A stretch of 64,000 bases of DNA, taken from assembly GCA_038087875.1 (NCBI GenBank), contig CM075992.1:1428001-1492000 (forward strand), given 5' to 3'. The translations under genes and the position numbers were made by a program. Shown piece after piece: positions 12,203 to 42,548 of the stretch. Positions within the stretch are counted from its first letter, which is position 1; each line of letters starts with the position of its first letter. Below the pieces are notes generated by a model. The model made no database searches, had not been told where the DNA came from, and saw only the letters and a list, made by a program, of their open reading frames with translations. Source of the stretch: Malacoraja senta (taxonomy: Eukaryota).

Positions 12203-12550
12203 CTGGAGATGGGTGTTGACCCGAAACGTGGCCTATTCCTTCTCTCCAGAGATGCTGCCTGACCCGCTGAGTTACTCCAGCACTCTGTGAAACGTCACCT
12301 ATCCATGTTCTCCACAGATGCTGCCTGACCCGCTGAGTTACTCCAGCACTCTGTGAAACGTCACCTATCCATGTTCCGGCAGCATCTATGGAGCGAAGGA
12401 AATAGGCAACGTTTCGGCCCGAAACCCTTCCGGGTTTCAGCCCGAAACGTTGCCTATTTCCTTCAGGGTTTCGGCCCGAAAGGTTGCCCATTTCCTTCGC
12501 TCCACAGATGCTGCCTGACCCGCTGAGTTACTCCAGCTTTTTGTGTCTAT
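12203..12550 (+). mobile_element. PLE relic containing the 66-bp tandem plus fold-back cassette
   Basis: 66-mers with embedded CCGGCAGCATCTATGG...CCCTTCCGGGTTTC...GAAAGGTTGCCCATTTCC, near-identical to the copies at 21.1, 37.1 and 42.3 kb. Confidence 0.8.
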
Positions 12551-13344
12551 CTAGAGGCAGAGGGTGTTAGATTGACGGATGTGTGGACGAAGGCCATGGA
12601 GACTAGTTTATGTCGAAAAAATTGGTGATGGCTTCATTGTCCTGATGTCCTGAAAGGTGGTGAATTAACGTGAATTCATTAACCCATCACCTAGTTACTT
12701 ATCTCAGCCTCCACGGTGCAGGTTTGGAGCTGGGGGATTTTTTTTTACGCTGAGTTAGTATGAGAGTGAAGGCATGTAATTAAAAATAGATTCTGAATCC
12801 ACCAGGCCTGGTGCAGACCCCACCTGCCAATATGAGGTCAGGGTCCCCACAGAATGTAAACTCCTTGGGGGCTGGTTGTGAAGAGAAGCCAGCACACGCT
12901 GTCTAAATGAGAAGCATCATTACTTTGTCAAGGGACAATTAACATGCCATTTTATTTCCCACTTATTTCCGATGCACGCCAATCTTGCAGCGATCGCCCA
13001 CCCTTGGTGGAGAGGAATCATCGCCTTTATATCCACCTCCTCACAACATTCAAACAACTGCCAGGAGGAAATTCTCCGCTAAATGTCTGCTCGCATTTGC
13101 TTCCATGCTGAAGCAACACCTGCTTTTCCGTTTCGTTCATTTGGTTTCCCAGCCAATTGCCCCGAGAAACCGCAAAAAACAGCGGCTCAAGGCTAATGAC
13201 TTCCCCGAGATCTGTCTCGGAGATAGACACTAAATGCTGGAGTAACTCAGCGGGACAGGCAGCATCTCTGGAGGGAAGGAATGGGTGACGTTTCGGGTCG
13301 AGACCCTTCTTCAGACAGGGAATCAGTCTTGGAATCAGCGTGGT

Positions 13345-13810
13345 GCTTTTTAAAAAATTAATTGATTTACAAAGCCAAATAATTCGAAGCAAAACCCGCC
13401 ACCACAATACAAGTCAAACCAATTTTCCTAAAACAACTATTACCCCATCTGCAATAAGGATGCATTCCCCCCCCGCCCCACACCCCCCCCACACCCCCGC
13501 CCCTCCCACGTGGTGCCCAGCGGTCCCGGAAATCCCCCAGGGCGCCATTGAGCATCGCTTGGTCCCTCTCTAAAACTGGATTTAAGAGAGAGTTAGATAG
13601 AGCTCTAGGGGCTAGTGGAGTCAAGGGATATGGGGAGAAGGCAGGCAGGCACGGGTTATTGATAGGGGACGATCAGCCATGATCACAATGAATGGCGGTG
13701 CTGGCTCGAAGGGCAGAATGGCCTCCTCCTGCACCTATTGTCTATGTTACCCGGGCGCGGACGTAACCCCGGAAAAGGGGCAGGCAGCCGGCTCGGGCAG
13801 AGCCCGATGC
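13345..13810 (-). mobile_element. Tx1-like (L1-clade) ORF2 C-terminus and 3' end, interrupted by a CR1 3' end (13578-13748, +)
   Basis: Joined translation GCLPLFRGYVRARV + VLERDQAMLNGALGDFRDRWAPRG resembles Tx1-type C-termini. Confidence 0.65.
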
Positions 13811-15329
13811 AGACACAAAAAGCTGGAGTAACTCAGCGGGGCAGGCAGCATCTCTGGAGAGAAGGAATGGGTGACGTTTCGGGGCGAGACCCTTCTTCAG
13901 ACAGGTCGGCCCAGCGCCGTGACTCGCTGACATTTTTTTTGGTATCAAAAAATAATTTATTTAATTTCAACACGATACAAAAACCCCAAAAATCTAAAGA
14001 CCATGGTGACCTACTCACCACCGTGTTACAAAATCATCAAACAACGATGTTACAAATATTCTAATGACTACTGTACAATGTACAATGGGGCAAGCTTCTG
14101 GCTTGGGCAAAGCCTTCTTCCGCCTGGTGCCGTGACTCAATAGACAATAGACAACAGGTGCAGGAGCAGGCCATTTGGCCCTTCGAGCCAGCACCAGCCA
14201 TTCAATGTGATCATGGCTGATCACTCGGGGATGGCCAGCTTGGCCGGGCACGGGAGCAAACCCAACCAGGACATCCTCAGCCCCAGAGTTGTGGTGCTTC
14301 GTCCGTCCCGAGATGCTCTTTCTGTGCCGGGGTGGGGTGGGGTGGGGTGGGGGATGGATGCCTGGTTGTGGCTGCCAGCGTTTCGAGATGCCACTGTGAC
14401 ACGACGGCCAGAGTTACCAGCCACTCTGCGCCACCCTCTCCCCGCTGACTCCTGCAGCCTCTGACATCAGTTGAAGATGTTTGCAGAGCGAAGCGTAAGG
14501 CCATAAAGACTAACATGCCCAGTGCGCTGACTGCTTATAATGAGGCTGGATGGTTCCCTTTTACAATCTGTCACGACGTATCTAAAAAAGTATATTTAGA
14601 ACTGCTTGTTAAAGCCGCAGCATCCTTAGAAATTGAGTTTCCAGTCGAAGACCCTGGGGAATTGTTCTGTTTTGTAAAGCTTCAATTTTCTCGTCGGCTT
14701 AAGGGGAGGGACTTCTGCGGGGGGAGGTGGGAGTGACGTTTGGACGCACGACATCAGTCTTGGTCTTTCCAGAGTTAGTTCATAAGTTCACAAGTGATAG
14801 GAGCAGAATTAGGGGGGTGGGGGGGAAGGAGGAGAACAAAAGGGGACCTGGCACGGGTACTGTGTATACTTTGTGCCCCTTATGTGGTGGCCATTTGCAT
14901 ACCTTCGGTGTGCAAGCAAAGAATTTCACTGTGACTTGCCACATGGGACAATGAAGTATTCATTCATTCATTCAATGACTTGGCCGTCTGTGGCAATGGA
15001 TCTTCGACACCCTTCAGTTCTTGGAGGATATGTGAACTCAGATAAGGGGCAGCACTTGCTGCCTAATCTTGCTGTGATTCTCTCCTCGGCATACGGAAAT
15101 CATTGTGATTGTAAACCTACCCGTTTAAAATCACAATGATGTCCCGTTGATTAAACTTGTTGGTACTGCACCATATATGGTAATCTTGCATTTTATTAAT
15201 ATTGAACCGCTAACCGGAGACAGCAGCTGTTTGCTGCCTCTGTTAACGGCTGACACAGTTAATAAAGCTTGCATTGATTAGCTTGCAAAGGCATACGTCA
15301 ATGATGCGCAGTTTTGTGGTCGGTGCATC

Positions 15330-15565
15330 TGCCCGTCGACCAGCGATCATCTCGTACACCAGCGCTATTTTACGCACTAGGGGACAATTTTACAACTTGC
15401 CGAAACCAATTAACAAACAAACCCGCAGGCCTTTGGAAACCGGAGCAGCTGGAGGGAACCAGCCAGGTCACGGGGAGAAGGTACAAACTCCGTACAGACG
15501 GCACCCGTGGTCAGGATCGAAGCCGGGTCTCTGGCGCTGTAAGGCAGCAACTCTACCGCTGCTCC
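15330..15565 (-). mobile_element. HE1-type SINE
   Basis: SINE core CACGGGGAGAAGGTACAAACTCCGTACAGAC and tRNA-like head. Confidence 0.8.
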
Positions 15566-15569
15566 ACTC

Positions 15570-16405
15570 AGTCCGCCCGGACCTACCTGATCTCCCGGTT
15601 GCTAAACACTTTAATTCTCCTTCCCATTCCCGCACTGACCTTTCTGTCCTGGGTCTCCCCCAGTGTCAGAGTGAGGCTAAGTGCAAATTGGAGGAACAGC
15701 ATCTCATAATTTTTATGGAGCAGCTTACACCCCAGTGGTATGAACATTGATTTATCTATTGATTTATCTAAACACCGGCATTCCCCCTCTCTCTATCCCT
15801 CCCCACCCAAGTCGCACCAGCTTCCAATTTTCACCCAACTAACAGCTAACAATGTCTGAAGAAGGGTTTCGGCCCGAAACGTTGCCTATTTCCTTCGCTC
15901 CATAGATGCTGCTGCACCCGCTGAGTTTCTCCAGCATTTTGTGTCTTTTTTCAGTTTAAACCAGCATCTGCAGTTCCTTGGTACACAAAAATGCTGGAGA
16001 AACTCAGCGTGTGCAGCAGCATCTATGGAGCGAAGGAAATAGGCAACATTTCGGGCCGAAACCCTTCCGGGTTTCGGCCCGAAACGTTACCTATTTCCTT
16101 CCTGAAGGGATTCGGGCCGAAACGTTGCCTATTTCCTTCGCTCCATAGATGCTGCTGCACCCGCTGAGTTTCTCCAGCACTTTTGTGTACCTTCAGCTCA
16201 CAACGGCCTGTTTCCTTTATCATCATTACTTTTTTGCATATCTTTCATTCATTGTTCTGAATCTCTCCACATCACCGTCTTATATCTCTCGTTTCTCTTG
16301 TCCCTAACCGGTCTGAGGAAGGGTCTCGACCCGAAACGTCACCCATCCCTTCTCTCCAGAGATGCTGCCTGTCCCGCTGAGTTACTCCAGCGTTTTGTGT
16401 CTGTC
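15570..16405 (+). mobile_element. Penelope-like element 3' portion (GIY-YIG C-terminus, 3' UTR, hammerhead-like motif) with a nested fold-back cassette at 15855-16193
   Basis: Translation PDLPVAKHFNSPSHS-TDLSVLGL...KLEEQHLI...PSGMNID; ends GGTCTGAGGAAGGGTCTCGACCCGAAACGTCACC; insert flanked by CAGCT(A/C)ACAA(T/C)G. Confidence 0.85.
16310..16343 (+). ncRNA. Minimal type I hammerhead-like motif of a PLE
   Basis: Stem I GGU/ACC, CUGAGGA core plus extra A, stem II GGGU-CUCG-ACCC, GAAA, palindromic ACGU stem III, GUC triplet. Confidence 0.65.
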
Positions 16406-17695
16406 CCGTACATCTCGTCAATACCAATGGAAACACTCTGGTGTCCCCTCCACAAACAGCTCAAATCCAACTGCCTGGATAAGGTCCAGGAAAAGCAAGG
16501 TGGGATTAGAGTCAGCAAAAAGAAGCCGGCTAATTAATCTCCCTGGGACACCACTAGAATCTGTTATCAGTGCCGAGCAAAATAGTAATTTATAGCTAAG
16601 CATACAGACTATTGGATTTACAAACTCAATCATCATTGTGGGCAGTGAGGGCTAACTGTGTGTGTGTGGCAGGGATTGTGTGTAACACTGGGTGTGTAAC
16701 AGGGACTGTGTGTGTAACACTGGGTGTGTAACAGGGACTGTGTGTGTGTGTGTGTACAGATGCTGCCCGTCCCGCTGAGTTACTCCAGCATTTTTTGTGT
16801 CTATCTTCGGTGTAAACCAGCATCTGCAGTTCCTTCCTGCACAAACCCAGAGCTTTAGTGGGAACAAAAGCCCCCCGACAAGATGAGTCAGGACTATAAT
16901 TTAAATTATATTCTGATATCTCATTAACTGTAATAATATTTAGGTATGATAATGATTGAGCAAAATCTACATTTAATATCCTAATTAGGGATTATGGATA
17001 ATCTAGTCGTTTGGCGTGTAATGTGAGTTGCTTTCATTTTCCCCAGTCAGTTAATTACTGATAGCTCTCACTGTAATTCTGCCACTTTATCTACGCTGCA
17101 GAAGGACTGGAGGAACAGCTTAAAGAGACAGTGCTCCTCAGGGCTGTGGAACACCAGCATCAAGCGTTGACACGGCGAAGTTGATGGAAACAAGTGGACT
17201 TTTGCTGTTATCCCGTCATGTCCACGGCACCTCACGATAATTCTTGAGTCTTAGTTAAGAGATACAGCGCGGAAACAGCTCTTCGGCCCCACCGGGTCCG
17301 CTCCGACCAGCGATCCCCGCACGCTAATGCTGTCCTACACACGCCAGGGACCATTTACAATTTTGCCAAACCAATCAGCCTACAAACCTGCACGTCTTTG
17401 CAGTGTGGGGGGGAAACCGGAGCACCCGGAGAAAAACCACGCGGGATGTGCGGGTTTGTTGGGTCAGTTGGCATTCTGTGAATTGTCCATAGTGTGTAGG
17501 ATAGAACCAGAATATGGGTGATTGCTGGTAGCTGAAGGGCCTGTTTCCGCGCTGTATCTCGAAACTAAACCGCTGAAGAAGGGTCTCGACCCGAAACGTC
17601 ACCCATTCCTTCTCTCCCGAGATCCTGCCTGTCCCGCTGAGTTGCTCCAGCTTTTAGTGTCTATCTTCGGTTTAAGCCAGCATCTGCAGTTCCTA

Positions 17696-18018
17696 GGTAG
17701 ACAAAAATGCTGGAGAAACTCAGCGGGTGCAGCAGCATCTATGGAGCGAAGGAAATAGGCAACGTTTCGGGCCGAAACCCTGAAGGAAATAGGCAACGTT
17801 TCGGGCCGAAACCCTGAAGGAAATAGGCAACGTTTCGGGACGAAACCCGGAAGGGTTTCGGGCCGAAACGTTGCCTATTTCCTTCGCTCCATAGATGCTG
17901 CTGCACCCGCTGAGTTTCTCCAGCAGGTACACAAAAATGCTGGAGAAACTCAGCGGGTGCGGCAGCATCTATGGAGCGAAGGAAATAGGCAACGTTTCGG
18001 GCCGAAACCCTTCTTCAG
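17696..18018 (-). mobile_element. PLE fold-back cassette inserted in the 3' end of an older PLE copy (17573-17694)
   Basis: Same junctions as 31-359; CAGTTCC on both sides. Confidence 0.8.
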
Positions 18019-18568
18019 TTCCCTCCTGCACTAAACTAAAAAAAAAAAAATCCAGGTTTTTGAGACTGCAGAGGCTAAGAATTCCATGTGGATAGTATGC
18101 ATTGTGTTACAGTGGAAGCAAATCGTGGTCATTCTCTGCTGGCAAGTGGGAGGTGGGACAATATTCCCGCTGCGATGTCAAGGTACAGATTTCCGATGGG
18201 TCTGGGAGTAGTGGAAATGGTTGCCCTCTGGGCAAAGCAGATTTTCAACAGCCTGACAGCTGTTTCTAAGCAAAGGTCACAAGTGAAACTTTAGTCTTCA
18301 GGAGATACAGCGCGGAAACAGACACTTCGGACCACCCAGTCCGCACCGACCAGCGATCAACCCGTGCGCTTGCACTGTCTCACGCACACTGGGGACAATC
18401 TCCATTTTTTTTTACCAAAGCCAATTAACCTACAAACCTGGAGTGTGGGATGAAACCAGAGCACCCGGAGGAAACCCACGCAGGTCACGGGGAGAACGTG
18501 CAAGAGTCAAGTCCAGAGTCAAGAGTGTTTTATTGTCATATGTTCCAGACGGGACAATGAAATTCTTA

Positions 18569-19682
18569 TAGCCCTGTCCTACTGTACGAGTTCATTCCAA
18601 GAGCTCTCCCGAGTTTTAAAAAATCGAGCTCGTGGTAAGCACGGAGAATGAAGGTAGCGGGTACGTCGGAGCTCAGCGACGTCTCTTAGCGCTAACGGCA
18701 GGTACTCGGGAAGACTCGCTAACGGCAGGTAAGCACGGGAAGACTCGTGAAGATTTTTCAACCTGATGAAAAATGTCCACGAGAGCCCCGAGTACTGACG
18801 AGCGGCCATTAGTTCTGTGCATAGTTCCCTGAAGGTGGAATCTCATGTAGATAGGGTGGTAAAGAAAGCTTTTGGTGTGCTGGCCTTTATAAATCAGAGC
18901 ATTGAATATAGAAGTTGGGATGTAATGTTAAAATTGTACAAGGCATTGGTGAGGCCAATTCTGGAGTATGGAGTACAATTTTGGTCGCCTAATTATAGGA
19001 AGGATGTCAACAAAATAGAGAGAGTACAGAGGAGATTTACTAGAATGTTGCCTGGGTTTCAGCAACTAAGTTACAGAGAAAGGTTGAACAAGTTAGGGCT
19101 TTATTCTTTGGAGCGCAGAAGGTTAAGAGGGGACTTGATAGAGGTCTTTAAAATTATGAGCGGGTTAGACAGAGTGGACGTGGATAAGCTTTTCCCATTG
19201 AGAGTAGGGAAGATTCAAACAAGGGGACATGACTTGAGAATTAAGGGACAGAAGTTTAGGGGGAACATTAGGGGGAACTTCTTTACTCAGAGAGTGGTAG
19301 CTGTGTGGAATGAGCTTCCAGTGGAAGTGGTGGAGGCAGGTTCGATGTTATCCTTTAAAAATAGATTGGATGGGTATATGGACGGGAAAGGAATGGAGGG
19401 TTATGGTCTGAGTGCAGGTAGATGGGACTAGGGGGAAGTATTTATTTTTAATTAAAAAAAAAAAAAGAAAAAAAAAAAAAGAAAATAAAAATTTAAAAAA
19501 ATATAATAAAATTTAAATTGTTTAAAAAAATGTTGGGCACGGACTTGAAGGGCCGAGATGGCCTGTTTCCGTGCTGTTATGGTTATATGGTTATATGGTT
19601 ATATTACCGTAAATCTCCGAGTTCAATTCAGGGCAAACTCGGGAGAGCTCTTGGAATGAACTCGCACTGTGGGACAGGGGTA
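18569..19682. mobile_element. PIF/Harbinger-like MITE (~320 bp) split by a CR1 insertion
   Basis: ~47-bp TIRs CCCTGTCC(C)AC...GAGTTCATTCCAAGAGCTCTCCCGAGTTT; flanks TTA/TAA; same family as 36058-36379. Confidence 0.85.
18812..19602 (+). mobile_element. Young CR1 3' fragment
   Basis: ORF 18817..19431; (ATGGTTAT)n tail; 4-bp duplication ATTA. Confidence 0.95.
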
Positions 19683-20349
19683 TAACTTGCTGCAGCACAA
19701 CAGAATATGTGAATATGTAAACATAGTACGTAACAAATATGGTGCAGATAACAAAAAATAATATAGTACAAACTCCGTACAGACAGCACCCGGAGTCAGG
19801 ATCGAACCCGGTTCTCTGTCGCTGTGAGGCAGCAGCTCTACCACCATGCCGACACTCACACTCACATAATGGGCTTGGATACACATCGGTCACAGCCACT
19901 GACGTCCCCACATTATCTCTCCCCAGCCCCTGCTTGAGGTCAATAGAGTTCAGCTCAGCTAAGCTGACTTGCCAATGTCTGGGTCTCATTTGAAGCCACA
20001 TTCTGGAAACTCATTAACACTACTAACACTGAGCACGGTTACTGATTGAGCAGAATCTGCATTTAATGTTATGATGAAGAAACAGGGGTAATGCTCTCGC
20101 ACTGTGTGCCATATGAGCAGCTTTTGTTCCAGTGCTCCTGTATAATTATGTGCACTTGGTACTGAAATTGTGACATTTATCTGCGGTTCGGAGATAACGG
20201 GACGGAGCCAAGTGGTGGGGATGGTGAGGAGCAAACTGCACCGCACCAGCGAGGGAGATTCACATCAGTGTGAGGCCGCATTTAGTCGGGAACGCATTGC
20301 AGCGCGGTTTGGGAACAGCGCTCCTTCCGAGACCGCGAGAGATGGCAGA

Positions 20350-20792
20350 GAATTGTGGACGCAGCCCAGACCAACCTCCCTTCAATTGACTCCATCTACA
20401 CCTCACGCTGCCTCACGCAAGGCCAGCAGCATAATCAGGGACCAGTCGCACCCCTTCTCCCCTCTCCCATCGGGCAAGAGGTACAGAAGCGTGAAAACGC
20501 ACACCTCCAGATTCAGAGACAGTTTCTTCCCAGCTGTTATCAGGCAACTGAACCATCCTACCACAACCAGAGAACGGTGCTGAACTACTATCTACCTCAT
20601 TGGTGACCCTCGGACTATCCTTGATCGGACCTTACTGGCTTTACCTTGCACTAAACGTTATTCCCTTATCATGTATCTGTACACTGTGGACGGCTGGATT
20701 GTAATCATGTATTGTCTTTCCGCTGGCTGGTTAGCAGGGAACAAAAGCTTTTCACTGTACCTCGGTACACGCGACAATAAACTAAACTGAAC
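20350..20792 (+). mobile_element. Rex1/Babar-like LINE 3' end
   Basis: FSPLPSGKRYRSVKTHTSRFRDSFFPAVIRQLN, then a 3' UTR ending ACAATAAACTAAACTG; related copies at 43300-43680 and 51720-51960. Confidence 0.8.
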
Positions 20793-20990
20793 CGACGCAG
20801 GTTAGGGAATTGCCGAATCCCAGAGGGACTGGGGTGCCTGAGCCAGGGGTTAATGGGCGCAGGTACTTCACACAAGAGGAGGTCTCAGGTTCGATTCTTT
20901 GGCTTTAAGTCACGTTGGGTAGATCCCCCAGACCCGGGCAAGAGAGAAAGAAGCATTCACTGATCGAGTCGAGTTGCCAAACGAAAAAAT

Positions 20991-21462
20991 CTGAAGAAGA
21001 GTCCCAACCTGAAACATCACCAACCCCTTTTTCTCCACAGATGCTGCCTGACCCGCTGAGTTACTCCAGCACTCTGTGAAACGTCACCTATCCATGTTCT
21101 CCACAGATGCTGCCTGACCCGCTGAGTTACTCCAGCACTCTGTGAAACGTCACCTATCCATGTTCCGGCAGCATCTATGGAGCGAAGGAAATAGGCAACG
21201 TTTCGGCCCGAAACCCTTCCGGGTTTCGGCCCGAAACGTTGCCTATTTCCTTCAGGGTTTCAGCCCGAAAGGTTGCCCATTTCCTTCGCTCCACAGATGC
21301 TGCCTGACCCCGCTGAGTTACTCCAGCACTCTGTGAAACGTCACCTATCCATGTTCTCCACAGATGCTGCCTGACCCGCTGAGTTACTCCAGCACTCTGT
21401 GAAACGTCACCTATCCATGTTCTCCACAGATGCTGCCTGACCCGCTGAGTTACTCCAGCACT
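20991..21462 (+). mobile_element. PLE relic containing the 66-bp tandem plus fold-back cassette
   Basis: Diverged head CTGAAGAAGAGTCCCAACCTGAAACATC followed by near-identical 66-mers and the fold-back insert. Confidence 0.8.
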
Positions 21463-21539
21463 GTGTGGCCATGTTTGGCAATTGAAAGCATCTTTATGGC
21501 CTCCAATTTTTAGGTTTAGAGATACAGCGCGGAAACAGA

Positions 21540-24124: not shown

Positions 24125-24915
24125 AATATGAGAGGCATAGTTCGGGAAGTCAGTCAGAAGCTTTATCTCAGGGTGGAGATGTCCAGCATTAGAGGGCACA
24201 GCTATGAGGTGAGAGGGGGAAAGTTTAATGGAGATCTTGTTTTTTTACACAGAGGGTGGTGGGTGCCTGGAACGCATTGACAGGGGTGGTGGTGGAGGCA
24301 GATACAATAGTGGTGTTTAAGAAGCTTTTAGATAGGCACGGAAGTGCAGGGAATAGAGGGATATGAATCATGTACAGGGAGATGAGATCAGTTTAACTTG
24401 GCATCATGTTCACCACAGACATTGTGGGCTGAAGGGCCTGTGCCTGTGCTGTCCTGGTCTATGTTGTATGTTCTATGTTCTCTGTTGTATGTTGTATGTT
24501 GTATGTTCTATGTTCTATGTTCTCTGTTCTATGATGTATGTTGTATTTTGTATGTTCTATGTTGTATGTTGTATGTTGTATGTTCTCTGTTGTATGTTGT
24601 ATGTTGTATGTTGCATGTTCTATGTTCTCTGTTGTATGGTGTATGTTGTATGTTGCATGTTCTGTGTTCTCTGCTCTATGTTGCATATTTATGTTGTATG
24701 TTGCATGTTGTATGTTCTGTGTTCTCTGTTGTATGTTGTATGTTGTATGTTGCATGTTGCATGTTCTGTGTTCTATGGTCTAGGTTGTATGTTGTATGTT
24801 GTATGTTGTATGTTGTATGTTCTATGTTCTACGTTGTATGTTCTATGTTCTATGTTCTCTGTTGTATGTTGTATGTTGTATGTTGTATGTTGTGTGTTCT
24901 ATGTTCTATGTTCAT
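24125..24915 (+). repeat. Old CR1 3' end whose tail has expanded into a ~450-bp (TATGTT[G/C])n microsatellite (24458-24915)
   Basis: GGGCTGAAGGGCCTGTGCCTGTGCTGT tail motif runs directly into the 7-mer array. Confidence 0.85.
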
Positions 24916-25896: not shown

Positions 25897-27923
<2,027 letters not shown>

Positions 27924-28536: not shown

Positions 28537-29386
28537 AACCATCAAAGACCCACACCATCCTGGCCACACACTCATCTCCCCACTACCTTCAGGTAGAAGG
28601 TACAGGAGCCTGAAGACTGCAACGACCAGGTTCAGGAATAGCTACTTCCCCACAGCCATCAGGCTATTAAACTTGGCTCGGACAAAACTCTGAACATTAA
28701 TAGCCCATTATCTGTTATCTGTAGTTTATCAGTTTATTTATTCATGTGTGTATATATTTATATAATGGTAGGTAGACAAAAATGCTGGAGAAACTCAGCG
28801 GGTGCAGCAGCATCTATGGAGCGAAGGAAATAGGCAACGTTTCGGGACGAAACCCTGAAGGAAATAGGCAACGTTTCGGGACGAAACCCGGAAGGGTTTC
28901 GGGCCGAAACGTTGCCTATTTCCTTCGCTCCATAGATGCTGCTGCACCCGCTGAGTTTCTCCAGCAGGTACACAAAAATGCTGGAGAAACTCAGCGGGTG
29001 CAGCAGCATCTATGGAGCGAAGGAAATAGGTAACGTTTCGGGCCGAAACCCTTCTTCAGACTGATAGGGGGTGGGGAGAAGAAAGGAAAAAAGGAAAAAG
29101 GCGGAGGAGGAGCCCGAGGGCTGGGGGAGGGGAGGAGACAACCAGAGGGCTGATGAAGGTGGAGGGGACAGCAAGGGCTAGCAGAATTGGGAGAATTCAA
29201 TGTTCAAGCCCCCAGGATGTAGACTGCCCAAGCGGAATATGAGGTGCATTTATATAATGGTATATGGACACACTGATCTGTTTTGTAGTCAATGCCTACT
29301 ATGTTCTGTTGTGCTGAAGCAAAGCAAGAATTTCATTGTCCTATCAGGGACACACATGACAATAAACCCACTTGACTTGACTTGAC
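28537..29386 (+). mobile_element. Rex1/Babar LINE 3' end split by a PLE insertion
   Basis: Near-identical to 31347-31670; tail ACAATAAA...(CTTGA)n. Confidence 0.88.
28771..29247 (-). mobile_element. 5'-truncated PLE: ORF end, 3' UTR and fold-back cassette
   Basis: Perfect 15-bp TSD ATTTATATAATGGTA (28756-28770, 29248-29262); rc of ~29190-29246 encodes HLIFRLGSLHPGGLNIEFS. Confidence 0.9.
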
Positions 29387-29548: not shown

Positions 29549-30047
29549 TGTTTAAGGAGGGGTTTCGTCCCGAAACGTTGCCTATTTCCTTCGCTCCATA
29601 GATGCTGCTGCACCCGCTGAGTTTCTCCAGCATTTTTGTGTACCTGCTGGAGAAACTCAGCGGGTGCAGCAGCATCTATGGAGCGAAGGAAATAGGCAAC
29701 GTTTCGTCCCGAAACCCTTCCGGGTTTCGTCCCGAAACGTTGCCTATTTCCTTCAGGGTTTCGTCCCGAAACGTTGCCTATTTCCTTCGCTCCACAGATG
29801 CTGCTGCACCCGCTGAGTTTCTCCAGCATTTATAACCATATAACCATATAACAATTACAGCACGGAAACAGGCCATCTCGACCCTTCTAGTCCGTGCCCA
29901 ACACGTATTCTCCCCTAGTCCCATCTACCTGCGCTCAGACCATAACCCTCCATTCCTTTCCCGTCCATATAACTATCCAATCTATTTTTAAATGATAAAA
30001 ACGAACCTGCCTCCACCACCTTCACTGGAAGCTCATTCCACACAGCA
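29549..30047. mobile_element. PLE fold-back cassette (+, ~29559-29831) fused to a CR1 3' end (-, ~29832-30046)
   Basis: Whole block flanked by the 12-bp direct repeat GTGCAGAGAAAG (29537-29548, 30048-30059). Confidence 0.8.
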
Positions 30048-30190
30048 GTGCAGAGAAAGATACTCGCTGTCATGAATGGAGCCGTGATGGTTTCTGTTGA
30101 GGTGAAGTCACCAACTTTTGCTGCAACAACAGTGAATGAGTACGCCTTAAAATTCGACACAACGTTCGTTGCAAATTTGTACCATCAACA

Positions 30191-31672: not shown

Positions 31673-31867
31673 CTGATCTAAAACTGGACATTTACATTTA
31701 TCCTGGCCACAGCTTGCATAGTCAATGCTAGACTCAGTTCCCAATGGACACAAAATGCAGAAGGGTCTCGACCCGAAACGTCACCCATTCCTTCTCTCCA
31801 GAGACGCTGCCTGTCCCGCTGAGTTACTCCAGCATTTTGAGTCTACCTTCGATTTAAACCAGCATCT

Positions 31868-32726: not shown

Positions 32727-32914
32727 GTATCTGCAGTTCCTTCCCACACATGTTGTCAGTTGATAGGGATTGGTTGATGAACATGTAATGCATCCCGCTG
32801 GGCCAATTTTCTATTCAGTGCTTACCTGATGGTATTGCCACAGCATCTTCCAAAACAGTGTCGAGACCTTTGTTCCTCTCCGTCTGGTCCTCACCTGATC
32901 TCTGTCGCCTGGGC

Positions 32915-34100
32915 TTGTTGTCGCTGAAATTTAGAAGGGATGAGAGGGGATCTTATAGAAACATATACAATTCTTAGATTGGACAGGCTAGATGCAGAAA
33001 AAATGTTCCCGATGTTGGGGGAGTCCAGAACCAGGGGTCACAAAGTTTAAGAATAAGGGGTCGGCCATTTAGGACTGAGATGAGGAAACACCTTTTTCAC
33101 CCAGAGAGTTGTGAATCTGTGGAATTCTCTGCCACAGGAGGCAGTGGAGGCCAATTCACTGGATGTATTCAAGAGAGAGTTAGATTTAGCTCTTAGGGCT
33201 AACGGAATCGGGGGATACAGACATAGATACATAGAAAATAGGTGCAGGAGTAGGCCATTCGGCCCTTCGAGCCTGCACCGCCATTCAATATGATCATGGC
33301 TGATCATCCACTCAGTATCCCGTACCTGCCTTCTCTCCATACCCCCTGATCCCTTTAGCCACAAGGGCCACATCTAACCCTCTTAAATATAGCCAATGAA
33401 CTGGCCTCAACTACCCTCTGTGGCAGAGAGTTCCACAGATTCACCACTCTGTGTGTGAAAACGTTTTTCCTCATCTCGGTCTTAAAGGATTTCCCCCTTA
33501 TCCTTAAGCTGTGACCCCTTGTCCTGGACTCCCCCAACATCAGGAACAATCTTCCTGCATCTAGCCTGTCCAACCCCATAAGAATTTTGTACGTTTCTAT
33601 AAGATCCCCTCTTAATCTCCTAAATTCTAGTGAGTATAAGCCGAGTCTATCCAGTCTTTCTTCATATGAAAGTCCTGACATCCCAGGAATCAGTCTGGTG
33701 AACCTTCTCTGCACTCCCTCTATGGCTATAATGTCCTTCCTCAGATTTGGAGACCAAAACTGTACGCAATACTCCAGGTGTGGTCTCACCAAGACCCTGT
33801 ACAACTGCAGTAGAACCTCCCTGCTCCTATACTCAAATCCTCTTGCTATGAAGGCTAACATACCATTCGCTTTCTTCTCTGCCTGCTGCACCTGCATGCC
33901 TACTTTCAATGACTGGTGTACCATGACACCCAGGTCTCGCTGCATCTCCCCTTTTCCTAATCGGCCACCATTTAGATAATAATGGGGAGAAAGCAGGAAC
34001 GGGGTACTGATTTTGGATGATCTGCCATGATCATAGTGAATGGCGGTGCTGGCACGAAGGGCCGAATGGCCTACTCCTGCACCTATTTTTCTATGTTTCT
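32915..34100. mobile_element. CR1 3' end (+) interrupted by an antisense CR1 (33221-33981)
   Basis: ORF 33355..33945 on the minus strand; host resumes ATGGGGAGAAAGCAGG at 33982. Confidence 0.92.
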
Positions 34101-35744
34101 ATTCCAGCACTTCACAGCATATTGGGGGCAATTAACAACAGCCAATTAAACTGCTAACGTATTCGGGAAGATAGATACAAAGTGCTGGAGTAATGGTGAA
34201 TCTGTGGAATTCTTTGCCACAGAAGGCTGTGGAGCCCAAGTCAAGGGATATTTTTAAGGCTGGAGATTGGCAGATTCTTGATTAGTACGGGTGTCAGGGG
34301 TTGTGGGGAGAAGGCAGGAGAATGGGGTTAGGAGGGAGAGATAGATCAGCCATGATTGAATGGTGGAGTAGACTTGATGGGCCGAATGGCCTGATTCTGC
34401 TTATGAACTCAACGGGTCAGGGAAATCACGACAGGTCTGTGGACAAGCGACTTGCTTTTGAGACCAAAGATGGGCACAAAGTCCTGGAGAAACTCAGTGG
34501 GTCAGACGGCATCTCCGGAGAACACAGATGGGTGACGTTTCGGTTCGGGACCCTTCCTCAGACCGTGTATATTTCTTCAGACCTTGTGTATTTATTCAGA
34601 CAGTATGTGGGAGGCGTAGGAAACTGCAGCATCTGGGGAGATCCAATACGGTCAGAGGGAAAGCATGCAAACTGCACACAGACAGAGCTGGAGGTCAGGA
34701 TCGAACCTGTGAGGCATCAGCTCCACCAGCTGCCGCCCCAAGAAAAGGCAAGCTGTTGTAGTGTAAGTTGTGCCTTCCCTAGACTCTAATCTGTTCCTCC
34801 ACCTCTTGAACTCTGGCACGTTGCAGAGACAGCTCGAGGTGGCAGACTTAAGTCGACACCGCGCCCTGGACCTCATTGAATATTTTTTATTAAATCTGCC
34901 GAGAGAACGTCAGACTTGAGAAAGTCTGCCTCCCGGTCAACCCAAACTGTTGACTGAGCAGAAACCGGAAAAAGGACGTCTCACAGTGCAATCATTGGGA
35001 ATAAATCTCTTCTGGCAGCGGGAAAACAGCCCCTCGCAGATGGAGCGCCTCTCAAAGCCAGAGAACCGTCGGAACAGAGGACCCAGCGTCGTCTGAGATA
35101 ACGTTAAAAAGATTCAATTAAGACTGACAAGTCTAATGAGCAGTGATAGATGGGCTGGGATGCAGAGAATGGGGAAGAATAGTTCGCAGGCTTAGATTTC
35201 ACTCCCACAATGTCATCGAAACAATGAAATGTCCCATATTGTCAGCTTCTGAGTGGTGTTATTAGATGAAGGGTGATGTGCAATTTCAGGTAATCAGTTA
35301 AACAATAATATTGCTGCGTGTAAAGGTGAGGAGTTAGATTAGTTGTTTAAAGTTCCAGCACGTTGATGGTTCCAATCCCGGAAACACAGATTTGAAAACG
35401 ATGATCTGCCTTTTCTATGGAAATAAATCCCCTTGTGAGGTGAGCAACAATATACTGGTATCAGCAAGTTCTCTATATCTCAATGTGACAAGGTCTTGTG
35501 TTCTCAATGAGGCTGGTCGACAAAAAACAGCAGATGGACTTTTTAATATCTAAATTGTCTCTGGTTCAATACTAGGGGTGTCTGGATTGTGAATGGCCTG
35601 CACTTTGAGTAGGCAATGCCCAGTTCCTGACACAAAATTCGAGCACCAGTTTCATCGGGAATTTTTTTTTTTTTTTTAAATATGCTGGGAATTTTAAATA
35701 AGAATACAGAATCTGGAAGTAGAGGTCGGCAGGTTTCATTTATT

Positions 35745-36041
35745 TTCGTTTCAAGATAGGGCGCGGAAACAGGCCATTCGGCCCATCGAGTCTGTGCCGA
35801 CCAGCGATCCCCGCGCGCTAACACTATCCTACACACACTAGGGACAATTTACAATTATACCAAGCCAATTTATCCGACAAACCGGTACGTCTTCGGGGTG
35901 TGGGAGGAAACCGGAGATCCCGGGGAAAACCCACGCAGGTCACGGGGAGAAGGTGCAAACTCCGTACAGACAGCACCCGTCGTCAGGATCGAACCGGGGT
36001 CTCTGGCGTTGTGAGGTAGCAACTCTACCGCTGTGCCACCC
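35745..36041 (-). mobile_element. HE1-type SINE
   Basis: Complete head, core and tail on the minus strand. Confidence 0.9.
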
Positions 36042-36057
36042 AGGCAGCCCTCAGTAA

Positions 36058-36379
36058 AATCCCTGTCCCACAGTGCGAGTTCATTCCAAGAGCTCTCCCG
36101 AGTTTTTAAAAAATCAGACCCCATGAGAATGAAGGTAGCGGGTACGTCGGAGCTCGGGGACGTCTCTTAGCGGCTCGTAACGCTAACGGCAGGTACTCGG
36201 GAAGACTCGCTAACGGCAGGTAAGCTCGGGAAGACTCGGGAAGATTTTTCAACATGTTGAAAAAATGTCCACGAGAGCCCCGAGTACCGACGAGCGGCCA
36301 TTACCGTAAATCTCCGAGTTCGAATCGGGGCAAACTCGGGAGAGCTCTTGGAATGAACTCGTACAGTGGGACAGGGCTA
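36058..36379. mobile_element. PIF/Harbinger-like MITE
   Basis: ~47-bp TIRs; flanks TAA/TTA; interior colinear with 18569-19682. Confidence 0.85.
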
Positions 36380-36824
36380 TTAGTGCTTGTGGAAAGAGAA
36401 ATAGTCAACATTTTGGGGCTAGGACCAGGTTTATTATTGTCATGTGTGCCGAGGTAGACATCTGTAGTCCCTTCCGATACAAAATAGAGGTACACTGCGT
36501 TAAAATGCACGTGAGAGTCAATAAACTAAAAGGAGACACAAAATAGATAAGAAAAGAGCTAAATATAAAAGAATACGTACAGGAACTATACATAGATGTC
36601 CCAGAAATCACTAGGCAAAGGAAGGGCTGGTCCAGAGCAATGAATCTTCCCAAAACTGGGCCACATGAGCAGGTAATCCTGCATCTTTATACAACACCAG
36701 AGATGTCCATGTGATCCATGGCAACGTGAGCTTCAGGAAGGAGATAACTGGGGTGAAGGTGAAAATGGAGCAGTGTAGGAAGGAACTGCAGATGAAATGT
36801 GTCAGAAGGAACTGCAGATGGAAG

Positions 36825-37375
36825 TCTGAAGGACGGGTCTCGTCGTGAAACATCGCCCATTTCTTCCCTCCAGAGATGCTGCCTTGCCCGCTGAGTTACT
36901 CCAGCACTCTGTGAAACGTCACCTATCCATGTTCTCCCACAGATGCTGCCTGACCCGCTGAGTTACTCCAGCACTCTGTGAAACGTCACCTATCCATGTT
37001 CTCCACAGATGCTGCCTGACCCGCTGAGTTACTCCAGCACTCTGTGAAACGTCACCTATCCATGTTCTCCCACAGATGCTGCCTGACCCGCTGAGTTACT
37101 CCAGCACTCTGTGAAACGTCACCTATCCATGTTCCGGCAGCATCTGTGGAGCGAAGGAAATAGGCAACGTTTCGGCCCGAAACCCTTCCGGGTTTCGGCC
37201 CGAAACGTTGCCTATTTCCTTCAGGGTTTCAGCCCGAAAGGTTGCCCATTTCCTTCGCTCCACAGATGCTGCCTGACCCGCTGAGTTACTCCAGCACTCT
37301 GTGAAACGTCACCTATCCATGTTCTCCACAGATGCTGCCCGACCCGCTGAGTTACTCCAGCATTTTGTGTCTATA
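36825..37375 (+). mobile_element. PLE relic containing the 66-bp tandem plus fold-back cassette
   Basis: Diverged head CTGAAGGACGGGTCTCGTCGTGAAACATC, several 66/67-mers and the shared fold-back insert. Confidence 0.8.
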
Positions 37376-37821
37376 TCAAGGAACTGCAGATGCTGGTTCA
37401 CACCGAAGATAGACACAAAATGCTGGAGTAACTCAGCGGGACGGGCAGCATCTTTGAAGAGAAGGAATGGGTGATGTTTCGGGTCGAGACCCTTCCTCAG
37501 AAAGAGAGTCAAGGGAGAGAGACACAGAGATAAGGAAGGGTGAGGTATGAAAACGAGAAATGAAAGGGGCAAAAATCAAGGCAAATGTAGAGTAGATGAT
37601 TCCATGTGGGGCAGGAGGATGAGGGGAGATCTTACAGAGGTGTACAAAATCATGAGAGGAATAGATCGGGTTGAGGTACAGAGACTTTTGCCCAGAGTAG
37701 GGGAATCGAGGACCAGAGGACATAGGTTCATGGTGAAGGGGAAAAGATTTAATATGCCTCCGTACAGACAGCACCCAAAGTCGGGATCGAACCCGGGTCT
37801 CTGGCGCTGAAAGCGCTGTAC

Positions 37822-38203
37822 AGGTCCTGTCCCACTTAGGAGACCTAATCAGCAACCTCTGGTGACCTTGCCCACCACCCGAGGTCACCGTAGGTTTTGG
37901 CCACTCTCCCTAATGGTCGAAAGTGGTTTCCGCGGTGGTCGAGGCTTCATCTAGGTTGATGCTAATTTTTCATCGTGATTAAAACCGGCCTCGACTGAAA
38001 ACAGGTCGGCGTTTTAAAGATCGATCATTTTTTAGTCGCAGGTCTAGTCGAAGCTGGGTTTTCTTCATAGTGGAGGAAGGTTTTCAACATGTGCGTGGGA
38101 GGTGGTAGGAGGTTGCAGGTCATCTCGATCTTGATTTTTTTTTTGGGTGGTGGGCAAGGTGACCAGAGGTTGGTGTTTAGGTCTCCTAAGTGGGACAGGG
38201 GCT
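37822..38203. mobile_element. PIF/Harbinger-like MITE inserted in an HE1 SINE head
   Basis: Long TIRs CCTGTCCCACTTAGGAGACCTAA...ACCTCTGGT; flanks TAC/TAA at a host TAA. Confidence 0.85.
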
Positions 38204-38626
38204 TAAGGCAGCAACTCTACCGCTGCACCACCATGCACATTGTGGGGGGTTTGTTTTTGCTTCGAGATAAGTGGAAATGACACACACCTCCAGCCCAGGT
38301 AGACCAACCTGCCAGTGTAGCTGCTTGTGTTGTATCTCACAGACATCTTATATGAAGCAAACAAAACACAGGAAGCAAAGAATGATGCAACTGTGTGAAA
38401 TTAAAGTGCTATAAAATAACATGTAATTAGCTCGTAGAAATTAGAAGCAATTTTCGCTATTTGTGCCTGAATAATATATCATTATCTGTTTTGCTAAACT
38501 CTTGAGTTAAGGAGGTTTGTATCAAATGAAATTCAATGTTAGGACTGAGATGCCTCCAGCGGTACCTGAAGTCCTGTCTTGGCAATCCTAGCGTGACACA
38601 ACTCAGGGCAGGGCAGCGGTAGAGTT

Positions 38627-39420
38627 AACCATATAACCATAACAGCACGAAAACAGGCCATCTCGGCCCTTCAAGTCCGTGCCCAACATATTTTTAAATT
38701 TTTTTTAAATTAAAAATAAATACTTCCCCCTAGTCCCATCTACCTGCACTCAGACCATAACCCTCCATTCCTTTCCCGTCCATATACCCATCCAATCTAT
38801 TTTTAAAGGATAACATCAAACCTGCCTCCACCACTTCCACTGGAAGCTCATTCCACACAGCTACCACTCTCTGAGTAAAGAAGTTCCCCTTAATGTTCCC
38901 CCTAAACTTCTGTCCCTCAATTCTCAAGTCATGTCCCCTTGTTTGAATCTTCCCTACTCTCAATGGGAATAGCTTATCCACGTCAACTCTGTCTAACCCG
39001 CTCATAATTTTAAAGACCTCTATCAAGTCCCCTCTTAACCTTCTGCGCTCCAAAGAATAAAGACCTAACTTGTTCAACCTTTCTCTGTAACTTAGTTGCT
39101 GAAACCCAGGCAACATTCTAGTAAATCTCCTCTGTACTCTCTCTATTTTGTTGACATCCTTCCTATAATTAGGCGACCAAAATTGTACTCCATTCCCCAG
39201 AATTGACCTCACCAATGCCTTGTACAATTTTAACATTACATCCCAACTTCTATATTCAATGCTCTGATTTATAAAGGCCAGCACACCAAAAGCTTTCTTT
39301 ACCACCCTATCTACATGAGATTCCACCTTCAGGGAACTATGCACAGTTATTCCTAGATCCCTCTGTTCAACTGCATTCCTCAATTCGCTACCATTTACCG
39401 TGTAGGTGGATACCATTTAC
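38627..39420 (-). mobile_element. Young CR1 3' fragment inserted in an HE1 SINE (38607-38626, 39421-39700, +)
   Basis: ORF 38730..39416; 4-bp duplication AGTT. Confidence 0.93.
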
Positions 39421-40536
39421 AGTTGCTGCCTTGCTGCGCCAGAGACCCGGGTTCGATCCTGACTACGGGTGCTGTCTGTACGGAGTTTGCACGTTCTCCC
39501 CGTGACCTGCGTGGGTTTTCTCTGGGATCACCGGTTTCCTTCCACACTCCAAAGACGTGCAGGTCTGTAGGTTGATCGGCTTGGTATAATTGTACATTGT
39601 CCCTAGTGTGTGTAGGATGTGTTAGTGTGCGGGGATCGCTGGTCGGCGCGGACTCAGTGGTCCAAAACGCCTACTCTATCTCTAAACTAAATAAACTAAA
39701 GCAAACTCGTCAGATGAAGATCATCCTACATCACAAGAGCTGAATGCAAAAGGGACGCTGGCTCCATCCATACCTCTGGTGCTGTCTGCGTGGAGTTTGC
39801 ACGTTCTCCCGGTAACTGTGTGGGTGCCTTGCAGATGCTCTGGTTTCCTCCCACGTGCGGGAGGAATTAGTAAGTTAATAGCTCCGGTATTAATTGCTGC
39901 AAGTGTGTTGGCATGAGATGGAAGCTGGCTGGAGTTAAAAGGAAAGTAGGGCCAAAATTAGGCAAGTTAGTGGCAGAGGTGGTGAATCTGTGGAATTCTT
40001 CGCCACAGAAGGCTGCGGAGGTGGATATATTTAAGGCAGAGATAGATAGAGTCTTGATTGGTACGGGTGTCAGGGGTTATGGGGAGAAGGCAGGAGAACG
40101 GGGTTAGGAGGGAGAGATAGATCAGCCATGATTGAATGGCGGAGTAGACTTGATGGGCCGAATGGTCTAATTCTGCTCCTATCACTACTGACCTTATGAG
40201 GTAATGAAGTCGAGTTGATGGGCATGGGTGAGCGAGAATAAGTTGCAGAGGAACAACGAACAGCTTCTTCCCCACAGCCACCAGGCTGTGAAACACAATG
40301 AATAAGCGCTGAGCTCCGAACTGCAAAACACTATATTATTATTTATTATTTGCACTATGTTTGTTATTTATTAAACTTTTTTTTTTTCTTCTCTTGCCCC
40401 GTTATATACAATGTTTACATATTCACATATTCTGTCGTGCGTCTGGGACATATGACAATAACACTCTCTTGACTCTTGAGGAATATTGAGAGGGGGTTTG
40501 GGGACTGACGGGTTTGCCATGCTGGAACTGATGGGT

Positions 40537-40846
40537 CAATAGACAATAGACAATAGACAATGGGTGCAGGAGTAGAGGCCATTCGGCCCTTCGAGCCAGC
40601 ACCGCCATTCAATGTGATCATGGCTGATCATCCCCAATCAGTACCCCCCGTTCCTGCCTTCTCCCCATATCCCCTGACTCCGCTATCTTTAAGAGCCCTA
40701 TCTAGCTCTCTCTGGAAAGCATCCAGAGAACCTGCCTCCAGGCAGAGAATTCCACAGACTCACAACTCTCTGAGAGAAAAAAGTGTTTCCTCGTCTCCGT
40801 TCTAAATGGCCTACCCCTAATTCTAAAACTGTGGCCCCTGGTTCTG
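40537..40846 (-). mobile_element. CR1 3' end, (TCTATTG)n-tail subfamily
   Basis: CAATAGA x3, then rc of the CR1 3' UTR and ORF end. Confidence 0.85.
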
Positions 40847-41589
40847 GTCGAATGGCCTATGTCATTGGAAGTATAATAAGACGAGCAGGAGCTAAAATGT
40901 CACATATAGTTTTTGTCCCGAGATGCTGCCTGAACCTGTTGAGTTACTCCAGCACTTTGTGTTCTTCTGCGTCTTAACCAGCATCTGCAGTTCCCTTTAA
41001 TTCAGGAAACCAATAAGAACGCTCTTTCCTCTCTTTGCGAAAAGTTGTCACTTGATCCTCGGGCAGAGGTACGCAGAGAGACGGATCCCTTTGGCAGCGC
41101 AGAACTCCCTCAGCTCAGTCCAGGTGTCTGAACTGCAACCATTTGGAGCCTTTAGATCAGAGCGGGAAGAGTTGGGCTCGGAGCCACGACTGCGATTGAC
41201 CTTAAGAGCCAAACAATACATTAAGTCATACCTGAGTCAGGAATCTGTTAATTCTCATTACCCATTCAACTCCTGTGAAAGTCTAACACCTAAATATTTA
41301 ATATTTCCTGCAGCTCGCAGCGGAGGAAGATTTGTGGCTAACTGCCGTCTGCATAATTTATTTAATGGAAAAATTCTGATTTTCTCCAATTAATTTTTCA
41401 ACGATTGCAATAAATAATCCTTCATAGTTTTTTGGGAGCATTGGGGATTGGGTTAAGTACACTTTTCCATAAACATTATTATATTATCTGCATGCAAAGC
41501 TCTTTCCTTCCATTCATCCCGGGTGGAAGTTAGCCATGGAAAAGTTAAGAGAGGAACTCTTGACTTTATTAAGTGGCTTCTGGCGGGCG

Positions 41590-41886
41590 GAGGTAGAGTT
41601 GCTGCCTCACAGCGCCAGAGAGCCGTGTTCGATCCTGACCACAGTTGCTGTCTGTACGGAGTTTGCACGTTCTCCCCGTGACCCGGTGGGTTTTCCCCAG
41701 GAGCTCCGGTTTTATCCCACACTCCAAAGACGTGTAGTTTGTAGGTTAATTGGCTTTGGTAGAAATTGTAAATTGTCACTAGTGTGTGTAGGATTGTGCT
41801 AATGTACGGGGTTCGCTGGTCGGCGCGGACTCAATGGGCTGAAGGGCCAGTTTCCGCGCTGTCTCTCCAAAGTCTAAAGTCTAAAG
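41590..41886 (+). mobile_element. HE1-type SINE
   Basis: GGTAGAGTTGCTGCCTCACAGCGCCAGAG head and CR1-like tail. Confidence 0.85.
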
Positions 41887-42119
41887 ACCCATTTGGTTGA
41901 AGGCAGCCTCCCTCTGGAAACGTGGCCACTTTGGTATTGGTGTAAGGAGAGCCTGATATTGATCGATCAGAGAATCAGACCATCCAGCCAACAACGGGAG
42001 TCATAACAGCCATAACTGGGAGTCTCCTCTGACAACATTCCCAGATATCTCCTGACCCACAGGCAAGACCACAGGGAGACAGCCAGAGAAGGAGTGGGAT
42101 TTGAAATCCTCAATGTAGA

Positions 42120-42548
42120 AACAAACAACTGCAGATGCTGGTTAACACGCAAACAGACTCAGAGTGCTGGAGTAACTCAGCGGGTCAGGCAGCATCTGTG
42201 GAGAACATGGATAGGTGACGTTTCACAGAGTGCTGGAGTAACTCAGCGGGTCAGGCAGCATCTGTGGAGCGAAGGAAATGGGCAACCTTTCGGGCTGAAA
42301 CCCTGAAGGAAATAGGCAACGTTTCGGGCCGAAACCCGGAAGGGTTTCGGGCCGAAACGTTGCCTATTTCCTTCGCTCCATAGATGCTGCCGGAACATGG
42401 ATAGGTGACGTTTCACAGAGTGCTGGAGTAACTCAGCGGGTCAGGCAGCATCTGTGGAGAACATGGATAGGTGACGTTTCACAGAGTGCTGGAGTAACTC
42501 AGCGGGTCAGGCAGCATCTGTGGAGAACACGGACAGGTGACCTTTCAG
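42120..42548 (-). mobile_element. PLE relic containing the 66-bp tandem plus fold-back cassette
   Basis: Reverse complement of the 21-kb cassette, including the diagnostic GGAAATGGGCAACCTTTC. Confidence 0.8.

What the first reader, a model, noticed from the sequence alone, without database searches (positions are those of the whole stretch)
12203..42548. Young 66-bp tandem cassette found only inside old, diverged Penelope relics (homing or conversion-like spread)
Seen: four loci (12.2, 21.0 and 36.8 kb on +, 42.1 kb on -) hold nearly identical 66-mers in different copy numbers. Each has the same embedded fold-back insert with the private variant GAAAGGTTGCCCATTTCC. The outer heads differ strongly between loci (CTGGAGATGGGTGTTGACCC, CTGAAGAAGAGTCCCAACCT, CTGAAGGACGGGTCTCGTCG) and I see no TSD around the cassette. 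The 12-kb copy carries its TTTCAGCCC variant in a different sub-repeat, which argues against simple assembly collapse. Inference: the cassette enters existing homologous relics by homology-directed integration or gene conversion, possibly from concatemeric (rolling-circle-like) cDNA.
Basis: partly seen in the sequence, partly recalled or inferred. Interest (0 to 1): 0.7.

Follow-up and report, generated by a model that had tools for sequence, protein, structure and literature searches.

The report
Tandem repeat overwriting dead Penelope relics
In this skate-type genome, near-identical short tandem repeats sit exactly in register inside old, decayed leftovers of Penelope-like jumping genes, as if young copies were written into dead copies by sequence matching instead of landing at new sites; this is probably real but was not checked against raw reads.

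Summary
Observation confirmed and extended. Four cassettes (plus a missed insert-less dimer at 11.7 kb) have interiors differing at 6 of 1,178 nt, while their hammerhead-type heads differ from a plain relic head at 7-9 of 41 nt. The 66-mer is a Penelope-type pLTR end lacking the hammerhead catalytic half, so it is not a retrozyme unit. The 125-nt fold-back is a slice of a second relic family's head-to-head complex (7 loci). The 32-nt core next to the old heads is perfect in 3 of 4, against a mean of 3.7 changes in old plain relics (P about 0.002): donor sequence overwrote it in register, or only perfect cores are entered. The same old-head/66-mer/old-tail layout shows in one RefSeq protein of a skate whose published assembly is HiFi-only, which argues against a short-read polishing artefact for the tandem, though not for the insert. 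No genome and no read evidence were obtained. Best reading (0.5): homology-guided, in-register copying of a PLE-derived tandem template into older relics. Artefact about 0.2. A new variant of known PLE/retrozyme biology.

The parts
11688..11842 (+).
12203..12288 (+). L12 old head: hammerhead-type CTG..stem II..GAAAC plus first unit; private variants up to U position 27
   Evidence: 7 events in 41 nt
12289..12375 (+). L12 one exact 66-mer plus 21-nt partial unit
   Evidence: 0 differences
12376..12500 (+). L12 125-nt fold-back insert (family-B slice); A variant in sub-repeat 1
12501..12552 (+). L12 closing core and relic-type tail
20991..21077 (+). L21 old head and first unit
   Evidence: 9 events in 41 nt
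21078..21462 (+). L21 interior: U, partial, insert 21,165-21,289, core with an extra C, U, last unit
   Evidence: fold
36826..36912 (+). L37 old head and first unit, private variants up to U position 40
   Evidence: 9 events in 41 nt; 2 in core
36913..37372 (+). L37 interior: 3 U (two with an extra C), partial, insert 37,134-37,258, core, last unit with T38C and relic tail
37378..37500 (-). Plain family-A relic abutting L37 tail to tail; its tail sequence forms the 15-nt direct repeat around L37
42127..42546 (-). L42: 5'-truncated first unit (3 mismatches, no hammerhead head), U, partial, insert 42,393-42,269, core, last unit, old tail
34..347 (+). Family-B fold-back complex; holds the slice seen as insert (3 differences in 87 nt)
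15856..16191 (+). Family-B complex with private substitutions, downstream of an ORF remnant
17695..18018 (-). Family-B complex with three 34-bp sub-repeats, abutting the tail of a plain family-A relic (17,573-17,690)
28770..29059 (-). Family-B complex at the 3' end of an ORF remnant
29557..29832 (+). Family-B complex
51234..51642 (+). Family-B head-to-head complex with a 35-bp x7 array, flanked by a 16-nt direct repeat (TSD-like)
53409..53575 (+). Rearranged family-B complex
15541..15757 (+). ORF remnant resembling the C-terminus of a Penelope/Poseidon GIY-YIG endonuclease (motif recalled; frameshifted)
   Evidence: no Pfam hit
29187..29249 (-). Second ORF remnant of the same motif
   Evidence: no Pfam hit

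Best explanation
The window is littered with short 3'-end (pLTR) relics of two Penelope-like element (PLE) families, each with a minimal hammerhead layout and an optional tail. A non-autonomous family-A derivative arose by one deletion joining the body end (CTCTGT) to GAAAC. This gives a 66-nt unit that lost the CUGAnGA core and stem II but kept the GAAAC-GUC cleavage-site half. One lineage of this tandem captured 125 nt of a family-B head-to-head complex by template switch, using the ~16-nt homology that A and B share at the 3' join. The tandem is then copied into existing family-A relics in register: a nick or break in the relic core pairs with the tandem template, most likely RNA/cDNA handled by a PLE reverse transcriptase. 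Synthesis enters in one unit and resolves in a later one. The old head and tail survive, the core is replaced, there is no TSD, and the unit number varies. Shown: anatomy, import of the interior, register, clean cores, family-B origin of the insert. Inferred: PLE enzyme, RNA template, nick position, order of events.
For: Interior 6 differences in 1,178 nt against heads with 7, 9, 9, 9 events in 41 nt. U matches across loci, not the local head. 5 of 35 relic clusters carry the tandem and all 5 are in register. Core events: 0, 0, 0, 2 beside cassette heads against mean 3.7 in 7 old plain relics; P(3 or more perfect of 11) about 0.002. A perfect 32-nt core is in 4 of 5 tandem loci and 0 of 23 plain relics, Fisher p = 2.4e-4 (partly circular). 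All switch windows in the window overlap at U41-59. RefSeq protein P0001 (XP_078261850.1, Rhinoraja longicauda) ends in old-type tail + exact 22-residue unit across the junction + old-type head; that species' published assembly is HiFi plus hifiasm, with no polishing step found in the text. Head-to-head inverted copies, partial tandems and tails are standard PLE products (PMC8557442 passages; PMC3846280 passages). A PLE protein cleaves and extends both strands and is proposed to nick its own pLTR or elsewhere (PMC11167929 parts 1-2 of 4). Family-B complexes carry private changes and one has a 16-nt TSD-like repeat.
Against: No raw reads and no genome were seen. The all-or-none dependence on a perfect core is also what read mis-mapping during polishing would give: 7 of 23 plain relics are one mismatch from the core and none carries the tandem. 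[quoted passage not shown] P0001 is one example, at protein level, without the insert, and its version of the assembly was not checked; three other protein searches showed no junction. Preference for old heads is not significant alone (4 of 11 against 0 of 9, p = 0.09). L37's tail variant conflicts with its head, and L42 has no old head. n = 5 loci.
Confidence: 0.5

Rival explanations
1. Assembly or polishing artefact: short reads from one real high-copy tandem/fold-back source pile onto relics with about 30 nt or more of perfect match, and local reassembly writes the dominant looped path between the true flanks.
For: Threshold behaviour: perfect core in 4 of 5 tandem loci, 0 of 23 plain. Near-zero interior divergence with variable loop numbers. 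7 of 9 family-B loci show the same kind of inner complex. No read check.
Against: Same dimer layout in a RefSeq protein from a species assembled from HiFi alone, with tail variants only about 10 nt from the inferred switch. L37 shares only 20 perfect nt between head and tail variants. Interiors hold private C-run insertions and substitutions, and B complexes hold private changes. The window resolves a 2-kb CA tract and a 7-kb satellite and has one N gap, typical of long-read contigs (inference).
Confidence: 0.2
2. DNA-level ectopic gene conversion (synthesis-dependent strand annealing) from genomic tandem arrays, with out-of-register return; no reverse transcriptase needed at the last step.
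For: Explains overwritten cores, no TSD and variable unit number equally well. Sensitivity to single mismatches suits recombination. Local amplification of pLTR ends into tandems is proposed in bioRxiv 2026.07.22.740005.
Against: 30-50 nt of homology is short for vertebrate ectopic recombination (general knowledge, recalled). 5 events in 55 kb is a high rate. Other dispersed repeats in the window stay mostly 70-90% alike. The insert has the head-to-head geometry of PLE reverse transcription.
Confidence: 0.18
3. Ordinary retrotransposition of a fixed composite master to new sites; the varied heads and tails come from template switches onto transcripts of old relics, or from many source loci.
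For: L37 is flanked by a 15-nt direct repeat. L42 looks 5'-truncated. Family-B complexes have near-consensus heads and one TSD-like repeat.
Against: Needs two independent switches per insertion, since both heads and tails differ among loci. No direct repeat over 6 nt at 4 of 5 loci. Heads differ pairwise at 7-9 of about 20 nt among the four with heads.
Confidence: 0.12

Closest known systems
Insertions of EN+ Penelope-like elements: partial tandems, adjacent inverted 5'-truncated pLTR, 30-40-bp tail (PMC8557442 passages; PMC3846280 passages)
   Same: Short pLTR-end relics, head-to-head fold-back with a palindromic junction, optional tail, secondary insertion next to older copies.
   Different: A fixed internal 66-nt unit, identical across loci, sits in register between an older head and tail. 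The passages read describe no in-register replacement of old copies.
Minimal type I hammerheads of metazoan PLEs (PMC4209133, part 1 of 4 and passages)
   Same: Heads show CUGAnGA, an unpaired A, stem II, GAAAC and GUH with no helix III loop.
   Different: The repeated unit lacks CUGAnGA and stem II and keeps only GAAAC-GUC.
Non-LTR retrozymes (PMC7229834 passages; bioRxiv 10.64898/2026.07.22.740005 parts 1-3 of 5)
   Same: PLE-pLTR-derived, non-coding, short tandem arrays of few units, dispersed; present in the one chondrichthyan sampled there.
   Different: Retrozymes are defined by a complete hammerhead in each repeat, which U does not have. They are not described as entering older relics by homology. 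That preprint's supplements were not seen and may list a related chondrichthyan family.
Poseidon element PAc in vitro (PMC11167929 parts 1-2 of 4)
   Same: Both strands cleaved and extended; proposed to nick its own pLTR or elsewhere; internal initiation that defines the tail.
   Different: [quoted passage not shown]
Gene conversion of old SINEs by young subfamilies, and group II intron retrohoming (both recalled, no call)
   Same: Young sequence replaces old at a pre-existing homologous site.
   Different: Conversion here adds tandem units and a foreign insert; the target is a dispersed dead copy, not an empty allele.

Membership tests
Penelope-like element pLTR relic (host sequence) | Minimal type I hammerhead layout in the terminal repeat | tested here: met
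   CTG, A15, G19 and AAA invariant in 19 of 19 aligned heads; stem II 90.8% of cells paired. Covariation weak (17 of 500 shuffles as high); no hammerhead among 51 Rfam matches at E<=1.
Penelope-like element pLTR relic (host sequence) | Lies 3' of an RT/GIY-YIG ORF | tested here: inconclusive
   Two remnants upstream of family-B heads match a recalled C-terminal motif and each other; Pfam gave 0 families for both; atlas best score 0.75, hypothetical. No ORF remnant was seen upstream of family-A heads.
Penelope-like element pLTR relic (host sequence) | Optional 30-40-nt tail and head-to-head inverted copies | tested here: met
   Relics with and without the ...CATCTGCAGTTCC tail; head-to-head pairs at 48.5, 51.2 and 52.6 kb.
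Non-LTR retrozyme (66-mer) | Complete type I hammerhead in each of two or more consecutive repeats | tested here: not met
   U has CAGCACTCTGT before GAAAC, with no CUGAnGA or stem II; fold z = -0.78.
Non-LTR retrozyme (66-mer) | Derived from a PLE pLTR and arranged in tandem | tested here: met
   U aligns at about 80-90% with plain relics; arrays of 2-4 units.
Non-LTR retrozyme (66-mer) | Self-cleavage and circular RNA | not testable with these tools
   No RNA holder listed and only contigs served.
Ordinary TPRT insertion | Target-site duplication around a uniformly young element | tested here: not met
   At most 6 nt at 4 of 5 loci; the 15 nt at L37 is conserved tail sequence outside an old head; ends older than interior.
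Homing element | Empty homologous site in a relative or on the other haplotype | not testable with these tools

The most novel reading that the evidence does not exclude
A 'half-hammerhead' defective retrozyme. The 66-nt unit keeps only the substrate half (GAAAC-GUC) of the dimeric PLE hammerhead, is cut in trans by intact heads into 66-nt circles or multimers, and is reverse-transcribed by PLE protein in register, telomerase-like, onto homologous dead relics genome-wide. This would be retro-homing into an element's own fossils in a vertebrate. If the window is typical (5 loci in 55 kb), it happened on the order of 10^5 times.
Probability: 0.22. Interest if true: 0.8.

Novelty: new variant of a known kind. 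Interest (0 to 1): 0.5.

Why it matters
How PLEs integrate and form tandem or inverted structures is still undefined (PMC8557442). If real, each locus records a left and a right switch point against a dated old relic, so thousands of loci would map PLE nick sites, homology needs and template jumps in vivo. It would also show homology-dependent targeting, which the single in vitro study did not see. If it is an artefact, it is a systematic error that adds hundreds of false bases at many repeat copies in a skate assembly, which curators should know.

Tried and rejected
Whole genome not held. Run search: 24 runs listed, all as contigs; two runs of organism A hold 0.63 and 0.62 of sampled words, 15 runs of organisms B-H hold 0.28-0.31; no RNA holder listed. 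Cassette words are only 4.9% of that stretch, so the shares say nothing about the junctions. Junction and plain-core patterns gave 0 hits in metagenome, prokaryote-genome and viral contigs; the plain core also gave 0, so these are uninformative. Protein searches: 0 hits of 25 candidates, 1 of 627, 0 of 17. The representative search listed 150 of 224 hits; none of the 150 held a junction motif. Of the 3 printed, one was an unrelated repeat-rich bacterial-type protein and two were translations of single relics. Rfam gave only below-threshold hairpin matches. Paper searches found no description of this cassette or of in-register entry into PLE relics (open-access library only). Earlier findings by place, sequence and skate words: none. 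Rejected: local tandem duplication (U is not a copy of the local head); retrozyme membership; coding function (the open minus-strand frame follows from the 66-nt period). The head-versus-plain-head column used a mis-set reference and was redone.
Full report
Observation. The four loci are as described. With U the 66-mer starting at GAAAC, each locus reads: diverged first unit, 1-3 U, a 21-nt partial unit, a 125-nt insert, the rest of the interrupted unit, 0-2 more U, then a relic-type tail. Interiors differ at 6 of 1,178 nt, three of them single C insertions. The variant GAAAGGTTGCCC occurs only at these four places. A fifth locus, an insert-less dimer at 11,688-11,842, was missed. L42 lacks an old hammerhead head. 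L37 is flanked by a 15-nt direct repeat made of conserved tail sequence; the other four loci have none over 6 nt.

Hosts. BLAST of the window gave 35 relic clusters of two related families, A and B. Heads show the minimal hammerhead layout of PLE pLTRs (PMC4209133, part 1 of 4): invariant core letters in 19 of 19 heads and stem II paired in 90.8% of cells, though covariation is weak and Rfam lists no hammerhead. Two ORF remnants upstream of family-B heads match a C-terminal GIY-YIG motif that I recall; Pfam and the atlas did not confirm it. Tails and head-to-head pairs fit published PLE anatomy (PMC8557442 passages; PMC3846280 passages). 'Penelope relic' is likely, but not database-proven here.

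The unit and the insert. U is the relic body from GAAAC to just before the short 3' end, joined to itself. It lacks CUGAnGA and stem II, so it fails the retrozyme definition of a full hammerhead per repeat (bioRxiv 2026.07.22.740005), but it keeps the GAAAC-GUC half. The insert is a slice of a family-B fold-back complex found at 7 of 9 family-B loci, with 3 differences in 87 nt from the copy at 34-347. It folds into a long hairpin, z = -14.5, and rejoins U through the stretch that A and B share. So the cassette is an A/B chimera of single origin that was later copied (inference).

Old outside, young inside. Against a plain head, the four cassette heads show 7, 9, 9 and 9 events in 41 nt; 9 of 16 plain relics with heads show 0-2 and 7 of 16 show 4-12. 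U matches across loci and not the local head, so it was imported. The 32-nt core beside cassette heads has 0, 0, 0 and 2 events, against a mean of 3.7 in the 7 old plain relics (P about 0.002). Either the donor overwrote the core, or only rare perfect cores are entered. None of 23 plain relics examined has a perfect core (hand-picked; fragments lacking the core and most family-B loci left out); 7 are one mismatch away and none carries the tandem. The young subfamily with T or C at U40 is never entered (0 of 9), but against 4 of 11 old heads this is not significant (p = 0.09). The left and right switch windows of all five loci overlap at U41-59.

Real or artefact. The all-or-none dependence on about 30 perfect bases is what short-read mis-mapping would also give, and I keep that rival at 0.2. 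Against it: a search with the open minus-strand frame of L12 found 1 protein among 627 candidates, XP_078261850.1 of Rhinoraja longicauda. Its C-terminus reads old-type tail, then the exact 22-residue unit across the CTCTGT|GAAAC junction, then an old-type head; the tail residues match variants in plain relics here. That species' published assembly used HiFi reads and hifiasm, and 'polish' does not occur in the text (bioRxiv 2025.06.08.657570, passages and section 14). This is one example, at protein level, without the insert, and I do not know whether the window comes from that assembly. Also against artefact: L37 has only 20 perfect bases between head and tail variants, interiors and B complexes hold private changes, and one B complex has a 16-nt TSD-like repeat. 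Three other protein searches and five DNA scans added nothing.

Mechanism. Most likely (0.5): a break in a relic core pairs with a tandem template handled by PLE machinery, synthesis enters in one unit and resolves in a later one, leaving old ends, a replaced core, no TSD and variable copy number. A PLE protein extends both strands and is proposed to nick its own pLTR, which suits the fold-back and the self-targeting. But it initiated at a non-homologous site in vitro (PMC11167929, parts 1-2 of 4), which does not suit in-register joins. DNA conversion from genomic arrays (0.18) predicts the same anatomy. Ordinary insertion of a fixed master (0.12) needs two switches per copy. A rolling-circle origin is possible but has no direct support.

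Novelty. Fold-back PLE ends are ordinary, as earlier notes on shark-type windows also concluded (unchecked AI notes). Tandems from pLTR ends are known as retrozymes. What I did not find in ten searches of the open library is a hammerhead-less unit entering older relics in register. Supplements of the retrozyme preprint were not seen and could list a related family. Verdict: new variant of a known kind, interest 0.5; 0.8 if retro-homing into fossils is shown.

Noticed in passing
window 55,002-62,074: 7-kb array of a 23-bp satellite with an orientation switch at about 57,450, right after the only N gap (54,800-54,999). The two arms are 86% alike as mirrors, so it is not an exact fold-back read chimera.
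   Followed up: partly
window 15,980; 17,690; 37,378: Three younger elements abut, tail to tail, the GCAGTTCCT(T) end of a relic tail; may mark a preferred PLE nick site.
   Followed up: no
window 34-347: Head and tail copies of this family-B complex share a private C that the inner inverted arm lacks, as if the host relic's own sequence had been duplicated around an imported middle.
   Followed up: partly
window 15,856-15,980: Near-consensus family-B head joined to an old family-A-type tail: possible replacement of an A head by B.
   Followed up: no
window 51,234-51,642: Family-B head-to-head insertion with seven 35-bp sub-repeats and a 16-nt flanking direct repeat; both arms share a private variant.
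   Followed up: partly
P0001 (XP_078261850.1): A predicted skate CCSAP isoform ends in a translated 66-mer dimer: possible exonisation or mis-prediction; isoform X1 lacks it.
   Followed up: partly
window 25,899-27,922 and 24,460-24,912: 2-kb imperfect CA tract and a 450-bp 7-mer array.
   Followed up: no
window 713-1,209; 5,533-6,340; 18,815-19,605; 38,626-39,407; 29,836-30,046: Young dispersed repeat family, mostly 87-99% alike, following microsatellite-like ATAACCAT runs; one copy abuts a family-B complex.
   Followed up: no
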